Position numbers: made by a program. Below are positions 6,001 to 9,000 of a stretch of DNA of 46,614 nucleotides, in pieces (position 1 is the first letter of the stretch; the number at the start of each line of letters is the position of its first letter). Source of the DNA: a virus (lineage: Duplodnaviria > Heunggongvirae > Uroviricota > Caudoviricetes); the IMG/VR virus record IMGVR_UViG_2713896798_000017, one strand, 5' to 3'.

Positions 6001-9000
6001 TGCTTGGTAACTCGAAGTATTGCCCGGCGTTCTGTGGGGCGGGGTGGGTGGTTGGTGTATGTAATCTACAATTAAAAACTGTTTTGTGTCAACAGTTTTT
6101 AATTGTTGTTTTGGGCAAAAAAATCCCTCGAAAGAGGGAGTATGAAAATTGTTCAACTCAGATAGAGAAGGGAAATTGTCGCCGAGAATGTGTCACGCTT
6201 ACAATCTCAATGCTTGAAGCAGCTACTCTGTACAGGATTATGTAGTTAGGGTGGGTCACGATCTCTCTCAATCCAGAAACCCGTTCGCTTGGTGGATATA
6301 AGTACGGATGCTCAGATAGAGGTAATACCGATGTTTCAATGCGTATTTTTAGTCTACGTGCTGCCGGTGGGTTCTCCTTGGCGATGTAAGTTATGATCTG
6401 GCGCAAATCATCGCGAGCAGACGGTAGCCATAAAATGGGTAACATTACTCGCTCTTGTTAGTTACAGCAATTTGAGCAATAAGATTTTCCATTTCAGCCA
6501 TTACCTCGTCATGTGGAATTGCGGGGCGAGTGTCTGCAAGGCTTGACGTTACTTTAGTGCGCAACCATTCGTTGTAACTGTTTTCTTGTTCGGTAGTTTC
6601 GAATTCTGAAACTATCGGAGAAAGGGCTGTACCCATGGCATAACTCCTCTTCTTGTACTGTGGTCACGCCCGGCGGCTTTTTTGTGCCGCCAGCCACCTA
6701 GCAATGGTTTCTTCCATTGATTTTTTCTTGTCTTTGATTTCTTGAAGCATTTTTTCTTGGTCTTCCTCAGGAAACGCACTAAAAGCTTGGAGCAGTTCGC
6801 GTTGGCGAGGACCAATTTTCATCGTGTCAGGGGTGAAAATTTGCTCACACTCTTCAGGAGGCAATAAAAACCAATGCAATGGATGCCCTGAAACCTCAAC
6901 CAGTTTATCCAAACTTGAGGCTTTAGGTGTAGCCTTACCGCTGACCCATTGTTGAACAGTTTGTTGTGTCACACCAATTCTACGGGCAAGCTCAGCCTGG
7001 CTCCATCCAGTTTCCTGAAGAAGCTTGCTGATTCTGTACATAGATACTTCTAGGGCGCTCATCATTATTCAATTTTACAGGTAAATACTGTTAAAAGCAT
7101 CACAATAAAAAACTGTTGATTGCATACAGTTTTTTATTGTAGGCTTTGCTTATAGTTTTTAGAGGAGGGCAAAATGCTAGATAGCACTCGCGAAAAAATT
7201 AGGCAGAAATACACTCAGGCTGAAATAGGTCGTTATATGGGGGTCGCTCAACAGACTGTTTGGCAATGGTTTAGCTTTGGCGTTCCCCCAAAGCAGGTAA
7301 TTCCGTTATGCCAACTAATGAAGTGGGAAGTTACCCCGCATGAAATCCGCCCAGATATTTATCCTAACCCAACCGACGGTTTACCTGTTGGATGTAAGGT
7401 TAACACATCAAATGCGCCGGAGTTGATTCATGAAAATCAAGCATGAACACATCCGCATGGCGATGAATGCCTGGGCGCATCCGGACGGCGAAAAAGTACC
7501 GGCTGCGAAAATTACCAAAGCGTATTTCGAGCTGGGAATGACGTTCCCGGAACTGTATGACGACAGCCATCCGGAAGCCATGGCTCGCAATACTCAGAAA
7601 ATTTTCCGCTGGGTGGAGAAAGACACTCCTGATGCGGTTAAAAAAATTCAGGCGTTGTTACCAGCGATCGAAAAAGCGATGCCGCCTCCGCTGGTGGCCC
7701 GAATGCGCAGCCACAGTTCCGCTTATTTTCGGGAGTTGGTAGAGACGAAGGAACGGCTGGTGAAAGATATTGATGATTTCGTTGCATCAGCGATCGTTCT
7801 GTTCGATCAGATGAATCGTGGTGGCCCGGCAGGAAACACTCTGGCTGTGCATTAATTGGGTAATAAATATGAGTAATGACAAAAAATTGACACTGAGCGT
7901 TTACGAAAACAGTCCGCACATCTGGCGTGGCGGTTTATCTGATGTGGAGCTGGCAGAGTGGTTGATACATAAAGCTAATGCGCTGCTCTGGCGTTTGTCA
8001 GCCAGAGAACAGCGCAAGGAAACCAGAATAAAGCTGGCTGATGCAGAAGCGTGTGCCGGGCTTATTGAGGATTATACAAATCTTGGTATTTCTTCAGCAG
8101 AGAGTGATCCCATTCAGCCTCTGAGCAGGGAGTCAATCCAGCACGCTGGTTGTATGGCACATCTTGTAACTGCTCGTCAACATGAGGTGGGTATTGGATC
8201 ACTTCCGGTGGGATATTCGCTGATTCCAGAGCTGGTTGAAGCAAGAAAATCAGTTCAGAAAAAGAGAGATGACGCACTTCAATTATTGAGAGAGCACTAT
8301 GGCGCGATACCAGAATGCGAACAGCATCGATACCCTGAAGGTTATGAATGGATGCAGTCTCTTTTTGAAGTTCGCTAATCAATATGTCGAGACGAAGGTA
8401 TGTTTCGGCGCGCAGCCAGGCTCTGTAATCCGGGAGCATTTCGGGGCTGTTACACCAGCGGTTTGTTGCTGCAACATTTAATACATGAGCCTGATAAAGG
8501 CTTTTCAAAAAATACATGTCGAACCTCCTCTGGTTCTGTCGATTGGGAACCACAGATTATATCCGGAGGAAGGTTCGGCACCAGATGAGGTAGCCATGCG
8601 TGATTACGCAAAAGTTTCTCCGCGATTCTGGCTGGGAGAAACGGGGAGAGAACTTAGAAAGGCGGGTGCAGAAGCGCAAGTTGTTGCTTTTTACCTGATG
8701 ACATCCCCTCACGCAAATATGCTGGGTTTGTATTACCTGCCAGTTTTATACCTTGCTCATGAAACCGGGCTTGGTCTGGAAGGGGCTTCAAAGGGGCTTA
8801 AAAGGGCTGTTGAAGCTGGTTTTTGTAGCTATGACCATGATGCAGAGATGGTCTGGGTCCATGAAATGGCAGCCTGGCAGGTTGGGGAAACGTTGAAGCC
8901 TGGCGATAACCGTTGTGCAGGTGTCAGGAATGAGTATGCATCATTACCTGAAAACGCTTTTCTGTCAGTGTTTTACGACAGATATAAAACGGATTTCCAT

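What the first reader, a model, noticed from the sequence alone, without database searches (positions are those of the whole stretch)
6068..7150. Repressor co-oriented with a PaaA2/ParE2-like toxin-antitoxin pair, bracketed by two related operator palindromes
The CI-like HTH gene (6664-7065) is followed on the same strand by an antitoxin and a ParE/RelE toxin overlapping by 1 nt, in the position lambda uses for rexA/rexB. Two perfect palindromes with almost the same half-site (ACAAT[A/T]AAAAACTGT) sit at 6068-6106 and 7102-7140, like OL and OR. This suggests one repressor controls both early promoters and that the TA pair is expressed from the lysogen like an exclusion or addiction function. 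The architecture resembles the three-component paaR2-paaA2-parE2 systems, but here the regulator may double as the prophage repressor.
Basis: partly seen in the sequence, partly recalled or inferred. Interest (0 to 1): 0.7.

Follow-up and report, generated by a model that had tools for sequence, protein, structure and literature searches.

The report
Known prophage repressor–toxin–antitoxin immunity module
This is the immunity region of a lambda-like E. coli prophage, where the phage repressor is made together with a ParE-type toxin and its antitoxin; it matches the already named paaR1-paaA1-parE1 locus of E. coli O157:H7, so the finding is correct but not new.

Summary
On the minus strand lie a 133-aa HTH repressor (6664-7065), a 63-aa antitoxin (6445-6636) and a 95-aa toxin (6158-6445), with a TAATG 1-nt overlap. 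Two perfect 39-bp palindromes sit at 6068-6106 and 7102-7140.

The antitoxin and toxin are clear PaaA2 and ParE2 homologues (62% and 67% identity). The repressor shares its C-terminal half with PaaR2.

The 2-kb region differs at only 2 positions from prophage Sp4/CP-933M of E. coli O157:H7 Sakai. Published text places the second paaR-paaA-parE system of O157:H7 on that prophage, so this is paaR1-paaA1-parE1. About 440 complete E. coli genomes carry it at 99% identity or more.

For the paralogue paaR2-paaA2-parE2, published experiments show that PaaR2 acts like lambda CI, YdaS like Cro and YdaT like CII. They also show OL/PL and OR/PR-PRM operators, and that the toxin-antitoxin pair sits where rexAB sits and is addictive.

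I add one refinement. Each palindrome is two asymmetric 15-bp operators of phage-434 type (ACAAT-N5-ACTGT) flanking the -35 box of PL or PR. A third site, OR3 (7077-7091), sits next to a leaderless PRM.

Verdict: correct, but already known; low interest.

The parts
6063..6092 (-). Predicted PL promoter: -35 TTGACA (6092->6087), 18-nt spacer, -10 TAGATT (6068->6063). It drives the leftward ydfA/ydfB/dicF/dicB operon.
   Evidence: 10 of 12 consensus matches. The -35 is invariant across four immunity types (alignment A3).
6068..6082 (.). Operator OL1, ACAATTAAAAACTGT, lying in the PL spacer.
   Evidence: 0 substitutions in L005. Sakai Sp4 has ACAATAAAAAACTGT here.
6092..6106 (.). Operator OL2 (ACAATTAAAAACTGT on the minus strand), just upstream of the PL -35 box.
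6117..6139 (-). Intrinsic terminator ending the paaR1-paaA1-parE1 transcript (stem TCCCTC/GAGGGA followed by a run of 7 T).
   Evidence: A stem-plus-T-run is also present at this position in L005, L006 and L007 despite sequence changes (alignment A3).
6158..6445 (-). parE1 toxin gene, 95 aa.
   Evidence: 67% identical to ParE2. The DNA is identical to Sakai ECs_1067.
6445..6636 (-). paaA1 antitoxin gene, 63 aa, with no DNA-binding domain.
   Evidence: 62% identical to PaaA2. The DNA is identical to Sakai ECs_1068.
6664..7065 (-). paaR1 repressor gene, 133 aa. It has a 434-type HTH domain (residues about 4-67), a linker, and a conserved PaaR C-terminal helical domain (about 86-132).
   Evidence: The DNA is identical to Sakai ECs_1069, annotated 'phage repressor protein'.
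7065..7077 (-). Predicted PRM -10 box TAAAAT (7077->7072), followed by 6 nt and then the ATG at 7065. No Shine-Dalgarno sequence is present, so the repressor mRNA is predicted to be leaderless.
   Evidence: Read. L005 and L006 also have TAAAAT at the same place, and L007 has TAGAAT (alignment A2). PaaR2 was shown to be leaderless (PMC8630535).
7077..7091 (.). Operator OR3, ACAGGTAAATACTGT.
   Evidence: of the two 3-mismatch matches in 46.6 kb, this is the only one near the palindromes (10 bp from OR2), against 2.4 matches of any kind expected by chance in the whole window. Unchanged in L005.
7102..7116 (.). Operator OR2, ACAATAAAAAACTGT. Its centre is about -44 from the predicted PRM start.
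7116..7145 (+). Predicted PR promoter: -35 TTGATT (7116-7121), 18-nt spacer, -10 TAGGCT (7140-7145). It has the same geometry as PL.
   Evidence: Read by register with PL (D1, 14). The aligned -10 boxes in L006 (TATAAA) and L007 (TAACCT) are at the same position. The promoter scan did not call it (7 of 12 matches).
7126..7140 (.). Operator OR1 (ACAATAAAAAACTGT on the minus strand), lying in the PR spacer.
7174..7446 (+). ydaS-like gene (Cro analogue), 90 aa. Its recognition helix AQQTVWQW nearly matches the repressor's TQQTVQQW.
7423..7440 (.). Perfect YdaT operator TTGATTCATGAAAATCAA (the OM/PRE analogue) at the ydaS/ydaT junction.
   Evidence: The motif and its position match those described in PMC9986795.
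7430..7855 (+). ydaT gene (CII analogue), 141 aa, 86% identical to CP-933P/Sp12 YdaT.

Best explanation
The region is the immunity (lysis-lysogeny) switch of a lambdoid prophage of the Sp4/CP-933M type. The repressor PaaR1 is co-transcribed with the type II toxin-antitoxin pair PaaA1-ParE1.

Proposed mechanism:
1. PaaR1 has a 434-like HTH domain and a PaaR-family C-terminal oligomerisation domain, and no LexA-like protease domain. Dimers bind 15-bp operators of the form ACAAT-N5-ACTGT.
2. Two operators in inverted orientation flank the -35 box of PL (OL1, OL2). The same arrangement flanks the -35 box of PR (OR1, OR2). That arrangement is what produces the two 'perfect 39-bp palindromes'. A third, weaker site (OR3) abuts the -10 box of PRM.
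3. Bound repressor shuts off PR (ydaS/cro analogue, ydaT/cII analogue, replication genes) and PL (the ydfA-ydfB-dicF-dicB division-inhibitor operon).
4. Occupancy of OR2, at about -44, probably stimulates the weak PRM, and OR3 gives negative autoregulation.
5. PRM makes a leaderless paaR1-paaA1-parE1 mRNA that ends at the terminator 6139-6117, so the TA pair is expressed whenever the prophage is repressed.
6. The YdaS-like protein carries almost the same recognition helix and competes for the same operators, as Cro does. YdaT binds TTGATT-N6-AATCAA at 7423-7440 to drive a PRE-like leftward transcript.
7. The TA pair most likely acts as an addiction module that penalises loss or replacement of the immunity region.

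Shown here: gene content, homologies, near-identity to Sp4, the repeats with their conservation and co-variation, and the promoter and terminator consensus matches.
Inferred by analogy with the experimentally studied PaaR2 system: DNA binding, activation and repression logic, the leaderless start, oligomer-mediated OL-OR cooperation, and addiction.
For: Identity:
- Window 5853-7902 is 2049/2051 nt identical to Sakai Sp4 ECs_1067-1071.
- Sp4 equals CP-933M (PMC2884950).
[quoted passage not shown] Homology:
- ParE2 E = 3e-36; PaaA2 E = 1.4e-20; Pfam hits above cutoff.
- The PaaR C-terminal part is conserved among seven repressor sequences from five immunity types.

Operators:
- Palindrome statistics and 0/75 vs 20/188 substitutions in L005.
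- Heteroimmune relatives L006 and L007 keep the same layout (terminator, O2, TTGAC -35, O1, -10) but with different 15-mers. In L006 the two 15-mers are direct repeats.
- The same repeat search recovers TTTAGTAA/ACTAAAC repeats in the PaaR2-type locus L009. These match the experimentally footprinted GTTTAGTAA consensus of PMC8630535.

Recognition:
- The best PDB sequence hits are the 434 repressor, with the 434 residues Q17, Q28, Q29 and Q33 retained.
- The predicted N-terminal fold superposes on the 434 DNA-binding domain at 1.4-1.7 A.
- The 434 reference operator is ACAAT-N4-ATTGT (PMC1636474).
- The repressor and Cro-analogue recognition helices co-vary in five immunity types.

Promoters and terminator.
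YdaT site.
Mechanism in the paralogue: PMC8630535.
Against: - No experiment on PaaR1 binding to DNA was found. Only 3 papers in the library hold at least two of the terms paaR1, paaA1, parE1 and CP-933M.
- The PR -10 box (TAGGCT) is weak and was not called by the promoter scan. A better hexamer, TATAGT (7151-7156), lies downstream but lacks a -35 box and would cut into the Shine-Dalgarno sequence; it is also changed to TGTAGT in L005.
- The operators are 15 bp, one bp longer than 434 operators, so the 434 analogy is not exact.
- No OL3 site was found.
- The repressor lacks an S24 protease domain and no LexA box is present in the window, so how induction occurs is unknown.
- The biological role of the TA pair (addiction, exclusion or none) was not tested for this paralogue.
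Confidence: 0.88

Rival explanations
1. Each 39-bp palindrome is one composite site bound as a unit by a higher-order PaaR1 oligomer (PaaR2 is octameric in solution). On this reading it is not two independent 15-bp dimer sites, and the inner CTGT-N9-ACAG part may be the real recognition element.
For: The arms are perfectly symmetric in the window. PaaR2 octamerises (PMC8630535), and the C-terminal domain is conserved in PaaR1.
Against: - In Sakai Sp4 the OL palindrome is imperfect and its loop is 1 bp longer, yet the repressor is identical.
- OR3 is a lone 15-mer 10 bp from OR2.
- In L006 the two operators are direct repeats, and in L007 single 15-mers recur.
- The inner CTGT...ACAG half-sites point away from the dyad, the wrong orientation for a 434-type dimer.
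Confidence: 0.15
2. The TA pair is a Rex-like exclusion or abortive-infection function expressed from the lysogen to kill cells infected by other phages, rather than an addiction module.
For: It occupies the rexAB position and is co-transcribed with the repressor (PMC9986795). Type II TA systems are implicated in phage defence in the reviews listed (e.g. PMC10532202).
Against: - Neither the toxin nor the antitoxin matches any PADLOC defence model.
- For the paralogue, the tested phenotype is plasmid stabilisation/addiction, and no toxin activation was seen in either switch state (PMC8630535).
Confidence: 0.12
3. The palindromes are not protein operators. They are DNA or RNA hairpins: a bidirectional terminator at 6068-6106, and a structural or recombination hotspot bounding the swappable immunity cassette.
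For: - The terminator scan flags 6068-6106 on the + strand (16 pairs followed by TGTTTTGG).
- 6068-6106 lies next to the left edge of the region that is replaced in other phages. Homology to phage Tritos and relatives ends near 6050, and homology to Sp12 resumes at 7419.
Against: - The stems are AT-rich (3 G-C pairs).
- No + strand gene runs into 6068, and minus-strand transcripts are already stopped at 6139-6117.
- The -35 boxes of PL and PR sit exactly in the loops.
- Relatives keep 15-mers there without hairpin potential, for example the direct repeats in L006.
- Rfam finds nothing at these coordinates.
Confidence: 0.04
4. PaaR1 is only the dedicated transcriptional regulator of a three-component TA operon that happens to sit in a decayed prophage. 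On this reading it does not control PL, PR or prophage genes.
For: This was the original 2010 description of the paaR-paaA-parE systems (summarised in PMC4803016).
Against: - The same operator sequence is present 1 kb away at PL, in front of the dicF/dicB operon, and over the divergent ydaS promoter.
- No other CI-like gene is annotated in the same prophage in strain 2011C-4251.
- The repressor resembles DicA and the Gifsy prophage repressors over its full length.
- This view was overturned experimentally for PaaR2 (PMC8630535).
Confidence: 0.04

Closest known systems
paaR1-paaA1-parE1 of E. coli O157:H7 prophage CP-933M/Sp4 (Hallez et al. 2010, as cited in PMC8630535 and PMC4803016)
   Same: All five proteins (toxin, antitoxin, repressor, YdaS-like, YdaT) are identical. 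The DNA is 2049/2051 identical over 5853-7902. The insertion site next to yccA is the same.
   Different: There are two changes, both inside the OL palindrome: 6073 T in the window vs A in Sakai, and one T fewer in the loop. The window therefore has a perfect OL palindrome and Sakai an imperfect one. The host prophage in the window is from a non-identical strain background; the 100% matches include O103 and O45 STEC.
paaR2-paaA2-parE2 / ydaS-ydaT immunity region of CP-933P/Sp12 (Jurenas et al. 2021, PMC8630535; Prolic-Kalinsek et al. 2023, PMC9986795)
   Same: - Same gene order and orientation.
- TA pair in the rexAB position.
- PaaA 62%, ParE 67% and YdaT 86% identical; repressor C-terminal part conserved (42% identity over the C-terminal 98 aa, E = 2e-20).
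- Predicted leaderless repressor, operators at both PL and PR/PRM, and a YdaT site at the ydaS/ydaT junction.
   Different: - The HTH domain of the repressor is different, and so is the Cro analogue (19% identity).
- The operators are different: ACAAT-N5-ACTGT 15-mers here, GTTTAGTAA-type 18-bp inverted repeats there.
- Per the literature, the antitoxins do not cross-neutralise. It is a heteroimmune paralogue.
Phage 434 cI repressor and its OR/OL operators
   Same: - Best solved-structure sequence match for the HTH (E = 3e-5).
- Recognition helix TQQTVQQ vs TQQSIEQ, with the base-contacting glutamines retained.
- Operator half-site ACAAT and an A-rich non-contacted centre (PMC1636474).
- Three ORs with PR and PRM divergent.
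   Different: - Operators are 15 bp, not 14.
- One half-site is ACAGT in every operator here. From memory, 434 has this only in OR3.
- The C-terminal domain is a short helical PaaR domain, not the LexA/S24-like cleavable domain.
- rex-like genes are replaced by a TA pair.
DicA/DicC-dicB operon of prophage Qin, and the Gifsy-type short repressors
   Same: - Full-length similarity to the DicA model NF007257 (E = 8e-14) and to the Gifsy-1/2 repressors (31% identity).
- The leftward operon contains ydfA/ydfB-like genes, DicF RNA and dicB.
- No protease domain.
   Different: The score is below the DicA family cutoff (51.5 vs 101 bits). From my own knowledge, not checked here, DicA is not followed by a TA pair.
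Lambda cI-rexA-rexB with OL and OR
   Same: Functional layout: the repressor plus lysogen-expressed accessory genes form one leftward operon bracketed by operators at PL and PR. Other shared features are a leaderless cI-type start and Cro and CII analogues to the right.
   Different: There is no sequence homology beyond the HTH class. There is no RecA-mediated autocleavage domain. The accessory genes are a ParE-type TA pair, not RexAB. OL-OR are about 1.0 kb apart here; in lambda the distance is about 2.4 kb (from memory).

Membership tests
ParE toxin (RelE/ParE superfamily, Pfam PF05016) | Sequence match to the ParE family profile above the curated threshold | tested here: met
   63.5 bits vs cutoff 23, covering 1-89 of 89 profile positions. 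67% identical to crystallised ParE2.
ParE toxin (RelE/ParE superfamily, Pfam PF05016) | Toxicity neutralised by the cognate upstream antitoxin | not testable with these tools
   Reported for the identical O157:H7 ParE1/PaaA1 proteins according to the review PMC4803016. Not tested here.
PaaA antitoxin (Pfam PF21217) | Match to the PaaA2 profile; a small protein lacking a DNA-binding domain, encoded directly upstream of parE | tested here: met
   68.3 bits vs cutoff 27. E = 1.4e-20 to PDB 3zbe. 63 aa, with a 1-nt overlap with the toxin gene.
Three-component paaR-paaA-parE system | A separate HTH regulator gene upstream on the same strand, homologous to PaaR2 | tested here: met
   BLASTP E = 2e-20, 42% identity over 98 aa. 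The C-terminal segment (LLQxFxAFP ... ARWxAAQKxRRA) is largely invariant in seven repressor sequences. The N-terminal HTH domain is not alignable with that of PaaR2.
Three-component paaR-paaA-parE system | The three genes form one operon | tested here: inconclusive
   The genes are 27 nt apart and overlapping by 1 nt, there is a single terminator after parE1, and no internal promoter was called on the minus strand. Transcripts were not measured.
Lambdoid immunity switch (CI/Cro/CII analogue set as defined for CP-933P) | Divergent repressor and cro-like genes, with repeated operators overlapping both promoters and a second operator set at PL | tested here: met
   Five related 15-mers lie at OR (three) and OL (two), overlapping the predicted PR, PRM and PL. 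They are conserved in L005 and the layout is conserved in heteroimmune relatives.
Lambdoid immunity switch (CI/Cro/CII analogue set as defined for CP-933P) | Repressor and Cro analogue bind the same operators | tested here: inconclusive
   The recognition helices are nearly identical within each locus and co-vary across five immunity types. There is no binding assay.
Lambda CI / LexA-like (S24) autocleavable repressors | C-terminal S24 peptidase / RecA-stimulated autocleavage domain | tested here: not met
   No Peptidase_S24 hit in Pfam. The C-terminus is predicted as two helices. It is a functional analogue, not a family member.
Phage 434 repressor-type HTH | Xre/434 five-helix DNA-binding domain with the glutamines that read ACAA | tested here: met
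   phmmer E = 3e-5 to 434 repressor chains, with Q17, Q28, Q29 and Q33 aligned as Q. Foldseek rmsd 1.4-1.7 A over about 60 residues to 1sq8/1pra. The operator half-site is ACAAT, as in the 434 reference operator.
DicA family (NCBIfam NF007257) | Score above the curated family cutoff | tested here: not met
   51.5 bits vs cutoff 101, although the alignment is full-length. It is a distant relative only.

The most novel reading that the evidence does not exclude
PaaR-type immunity regions form a family of at least five heteroimmune specificities in E. coli prophages.
- The conserved core is the paaA-parE pair plus the C-terminal oligomerisation domain of the repressor.
- The HTH domain, the 15-bp operators and the cro analogue are swapped as a block. 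DNA homology to relatives ends inside the repressor gene, at window 6729-6831, which corresponds to residues 78-112.
- This fits the TA pair policing replacement of the immunity cassette.
- The PaaR1 specificity uses 434-like ACAAT half-sites on a 15-bp frame. I did not find this described in the searched literature.
Probability: 0.55. Interest if true: 0.3.

Novelty: already known. Interest (0 to 1): 0.18.

Why it matters
The finding matters little beyond confirmation. The locus is identical at protein level to a named system of E. coli O157:H7, and its logic (repressor as CI analogue, TA pair in the rex position, OL/OR operators) has been published for the paralogue.

The modest added value is a concrete, testable operator and promoter map for the uncharacterised PaaR1 immunity type: five 15-bp 434-like sites, a leaderless PRM, and PL driving the dicF/dicB operon. 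There is also comparative evidence that the recognition helices of the repressor and the Cro analogue co-vary with the operators across five related immunity types. This could guide work on prophage cross-immunity and on the stability of STEC prophages that carry effector genes.

Tried and rejected
- LexA control: the inner CTGT...ACAG of the palindromes recalls a LexA box, but the spacing is N9 (N10 in Sakai), not N8. No CTGT-N8-ACAG exists anywhere in the window. Rejected.
- Known defence system: PADLOC gives no hit for the toxin, the antitoxin, YdaS or YdaT, and only generic HTH hits for the repressor.
- Known RNA element at the palindromes: Rfam finds nothing between 5900 and 7300.
- Sequenced phages with this immunity type: none. 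The DNA search matches only the flanks (29% coverage). tblastn finds only phage Evi with a PaaR2/ParE2-like set, plus distant short repressors.
- OL3: no third 15-mer lies next to OL, because the terminator abuts OL2.
- Literature search for the native 434 operator strings returned nothing. Only the synthetic reference ACAATNNNNATTGT could be cited. The native OR3 sequence (ACAAGAAAAACTGT) is from my memory.
The single-sequence model (pLDDT 80.5) was used instead. Foldseek found no solved homologue for the C-terminal domain.
- A first guess at the Sp12 coordinates missed, one region request exceeded the size limit, and two scripts failed on a missing file.
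Full report
**1. Observation**

The ORF list and the sequence confirm three minus-strand genes:
- a 133-aa gene at 6664-7065;
- a 63-aa gene at 6445-6636;
- a 95-aa gene at 6158-6445.

The last two share one base: on the minus strand the sequence reads TAATG, stop and start overlapping by 1 nt.

Divergent from the first gene are a 90-aa ORF (7174-7446) and an overlapping 141-aa ORF (7430-7855).

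The two palindromes are real.
- 7102-7116/7126-7140 are 15-nt arms, 100% complementary, with a 9-nt loop. 6068-6106 is its 79%-identical copy.
- The half-site ACAATWAAAAACTGT occurs exactly four times in 46.6 kb, all in these palindromes.
- Only four perfect inverted repeats with arms of 11 nt or more exist in the whole window. In 100 dinucleotide-preserving shuffles the mean count was 0.17 and no arm exceeded 13 nt.

**2. What the genes are**

- Toxin: matches crystallised ParE2 (5cw7_B, E = 3e-36) and Pfam ParE_toxin at 63.5 bits against a cutoff of 23.
- Antitoxin: matches PaaA2 (3zbe, E = 1.4e-20) and Pfam PaaA2 at 68.3 bits against a cutoff of 27.
- Repressor: has an Xre/434-type HTH (HTH_3, E = 2e-12). 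Its best solved relatives by sequence are chains of the phage 434 repressor. It has no S24 peptidase domain.
- The rightward genes are YdaS- and YdaT-family proteins.

**3. Identity with a known locus**

The 2-kb region is 100% identical in many STEC genomes. 437 complete E. coli genomes carry it at 99% identity or more. There it lies in a lambdoid prophage inserted next to yccA.

The annotation of E. coli O157:H7 Sakai shows the same five genes as ECs_1067-ECs_1071 in 'prophage Sp4, lambda-like phage'. Window 5853-7902 differs from Sakai at only two positions, both inside the OL palindrome.

Sp4 is the Sakai counterpart of EDL933 CP-933M (PMC2884950). Jurenas et al. state that a homologue of paaR2-paaA2-parE2 lies on CP-933M (PMC8630535). 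[quoted passage not shown] The window therefore carries paaR1-paaA1-parE1.

I also fetched the paralogue in Sp12/CP-933P (ECs_2277-2281). Identities to the window proteins:

| Protein | Identity |
|---|---|
| PaaA | 62% |
| ParE | 67% |
| YdaT | 86% |
| YdaS | 19% |
| Repressor | 42% over the C-terminal 98 aa (E = 2e-20), with a largely conserved C-terminal segment and an unrelated N-terminal HTH domain |

**4. What is already published**

For CP-933P, Jurenas et al. 2021 showed the following:
- PaaR2 is a CI analogue, translated from a leaderless mRNA.
- PaaR2 and YdaS (the Cro analogue) footprint overlapping operators in the 97-bp intergenic region.
- Both repress PR and PRM. Low PaaR2 levels activate PRM.
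- A PL promoter with OL operators lies beyond the TA genes and is repressed by both proteins.
- YdaT (the CII analogue) activates a PRE-like promoter.
- The switch is bistable and the TA locus is addictive.

**5. Anatomy of the switch in this window (my refinement)**

*Promoters and terminator.*
- The promoter scan calls a strong leftward promoter: TTGACA (6092->6087), 18 nt, TAGATT (6068->6063). It also calls an intrinsic terminator on the minus strand at 6139-6117, directly after parE1.
- The -35 box lies in the loop of the OL palindrome.
- In the same register, the OR palindrome holds TTGATT (7116-7121), 18 nt, TAGGCT (7140-7145). This predicted PR is too weak for the scan's threshold.

*Operator units.* Each arm is a 15-mer of the form ACAAT-N5-ACTGT. 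Its two ends are inward-pointing ACAAT and ACAGT half-sites. The reference operator of phage 434 is ACAAT-N4-ATTGT, with a non-contacted, A-rich centre (PMC1636474). The repressor keeps the 434 residues Q17, Q28, Q29 and Q33. That these glutamines read ACAA in 434 is from my knowledge of the 434 co-crystal structures.

*Third site.* A further 15-mer, ACAGGTAAATACTGT (7077-7091), lies 10 bp from OR2. Of the two 3-mismatch matches in the window, it is the only one near the palindromes.
- It abuts a TAAAAT hexamer (7077->7072). That hexamer lies 6 nt before the ATG at 7065, and no Shine-Dalgarno sequence is present.
- This predicts a leaderless PRM transcript, with OR2 centred near -44 as in lambda.

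*YdaT site.* A perfect YdaT operator, TTGATTCATGAAAATCAA, sits at 7423-7440 on the ydaS/ydaT junction. This is the position described for OM in CP-933P.

**6. Comparative support**

*A close variant.* L005 is about 90% identical over this stretch. It carries 112 differences across 6030-7180, but none in the 75 bp of the five operators, against 20 in 188 other non-coding positions (p = 0.0009).

*Four further E. coli prophages* keep the order DUF1391 gene, parE, paaA, paaR, ydaS, ydaT, with different repressor HTH domains.
- In L006 and L007 the layout terminator, O2, TTGAC(-35), O1, -10 is conserved, but the 15-mers differ: TAACTTTAAAAGTGT-type in L006 and ACACAAAAAAAGTGT-type in L007.
- In L006 the two OL sites are direct repeats.
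- The operator unit is therefore the 15-mer. The window's 'perfect 39-bp palindrome' is two asymmetric 15-mers placed head to head. Sakai's imperfect OL, with a 1-bp longer loop, agrees with this.

*Control.* The same repeat search on the PaaR2-type locus L009 recovers TTTAGTAA/ACTAAAC repeats. These match the footprinted consensus GTTTAGTAA.

*Recognition helices* of the repressor and the Cro analogue are nearly the same within each locus and co-vary between loci:

| Locus | Repressor | Cro analogue |
|---|---|---|
| Window | TQQTVQQW | AQQTVWQW |
| L008 | TQGAVSH | TQGMVSH |
| PaaR2 type | SYLSQLMSG | SYLSQMASG |

*Cassette boundaries.* DNA homology to the heteroimmune relatives covers the TA genes and ends inside the repressor gene, at window 6729-6831, which corresponds to residues 78-112. 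Homology to Sp12 resumes at 7419, and homology to other phages ends near 6050. This delimits the swappable cassette.

**7. Repressor architecture**

A single-sequence AlphaFold model (pLDDT 80.5) shows three parts:
- a five-helix N-terminal domain, with block-mean pLDDT about 90 or above for residues 11-60;
- a low-confidence linker, residues 77-84;
- a helix-loop-long-helix C-terminal domain, residues 86-132.

Foldseek matches only the N-terminal domain, including the 434 DNA-binding domain at 1.4-1.7 A. The full length aligns with the DicA model below its cutoff and with the Gifsy-1/2 repressors.

The leftward operon downstream of PL contains ydfA/ydfB-like genes, DicF RNA (4435-4486) and dicB. 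That is the kind of operon DicA controls in prophage Qin (from my own knowledge).

**8. Mechanism and rivals**

*Best explanation (confidence 0.88).* This is a CI/Cro/CII-type bistable switch. PaaR1 represses PL and PR through 434-like 15-bp operators and autoregulates a leaderless paaR1-paaA1-parE1 operon. The TA pair serves as an addiction module for the immunity region.

*Rivals.*
- One composite 39-bp site for an oligomer (0.15).
- Rex-like exclusion as the role of the TA pair (0.12). There are no PADLOC hits for the toxin or antitoxin.
- Hairpins or terminators rather than operators (0.04).
- A regulator of the TA operon only (0.04).

*Rejected.* LexA control, because no CTGT-N8-ACAG exists in the window.

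**9. Verdict**

The operator map for the PaaR1 specificity and the modular family picture are incremental. Novelty: already known. Interest: about 0.18.

Noticed in passing
window 4061-4486 and 5195-5881 (minus strand): The leftward operon downstream of the predicted PL carries a DUF1391/ydfA-like gene (5726-5881), ydfB (5596-5724), a 129-aa ORF (5195-5584), DicF sRNA (4435-4486, Rfam 77 bits) and dicB (about 4061-4249). The repressor thus probably keeps two cell-division inhibitors silent, as DicA does in prophage Qin.
   Followed up: partly
window 6073 and 6082-6086 vs L002 (Sakai Sp4) 27370-27385: The only two differences from O157:H7 Sakai across 2 kb fall inside the OL palindrome: T vs A at the variable sixth position of the half-site, and one T fewer in the loop. 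OL is a perfect palindrome here and imperfect in Sakai.
   Followed up: yes
window 13246-13420 (+): A second toxin-antitoxin system lies in the same prophage: a type I hok/sok module (Rfam sok, 107 bits). hokD is annotated in the matching genome record.
   Followed up: no
window 17352-18681: A 1.3-kb segment is absent from the otherwise 99.9%-identical prophage of strain 2011C-4251. It encodes two overlapping transposase-like ORFs (136 and 301 aa) that look like an IS3-family element (IS2-like, by eye). It sits just upstream of an AraC-like gene (18740-19453).
   Followed up: partly
window 19482-19998 (+): Three tRNA genes are followed by the sRNA STnc100 (138 bits). The tRNAs are annotated Ile, Arg, Arg in the matching record. 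This is the usual lambdoid late-region tRNA cluster of STEC prophages.
   Followed up: no
window 8062-8553 (-): A 163-aa 'ECs1072 family phage-associated' gene lies antisense between ydaT and the replication genes. This is an unusual orientation for the early-right operon.
   Followed up: no
window 32314-32335 and 41823-41846: The only other perfect palindromes in the window with arms of 11 nt or more are TCAGGCCACCGCGGTGGCCTGA and AGGTAAGGGGCCCGCCCCTTACCT. Both are GC-rich and lie within the structural-gene region.
   Followed up: no
L005 1617-1904 vs window 6158-6445: In the ~90% variant L005, parE differs by 21% at nucleotide level while paaA (4.7%) and paaR (3%) are nearly unchanged. This suggests recombination within the TA pair itself.
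   Followed up: no
L006 2895-2915 (upstream of the annotated repressor start): In the heteroimmune relative L006 an in-frame ATG lies three codons upstream of the annotated start and 6 nt after a TAAAAT hexamer. The annotated start may be wrong, and the true start may be leaderless as predicted for the window.
   Followed up: no
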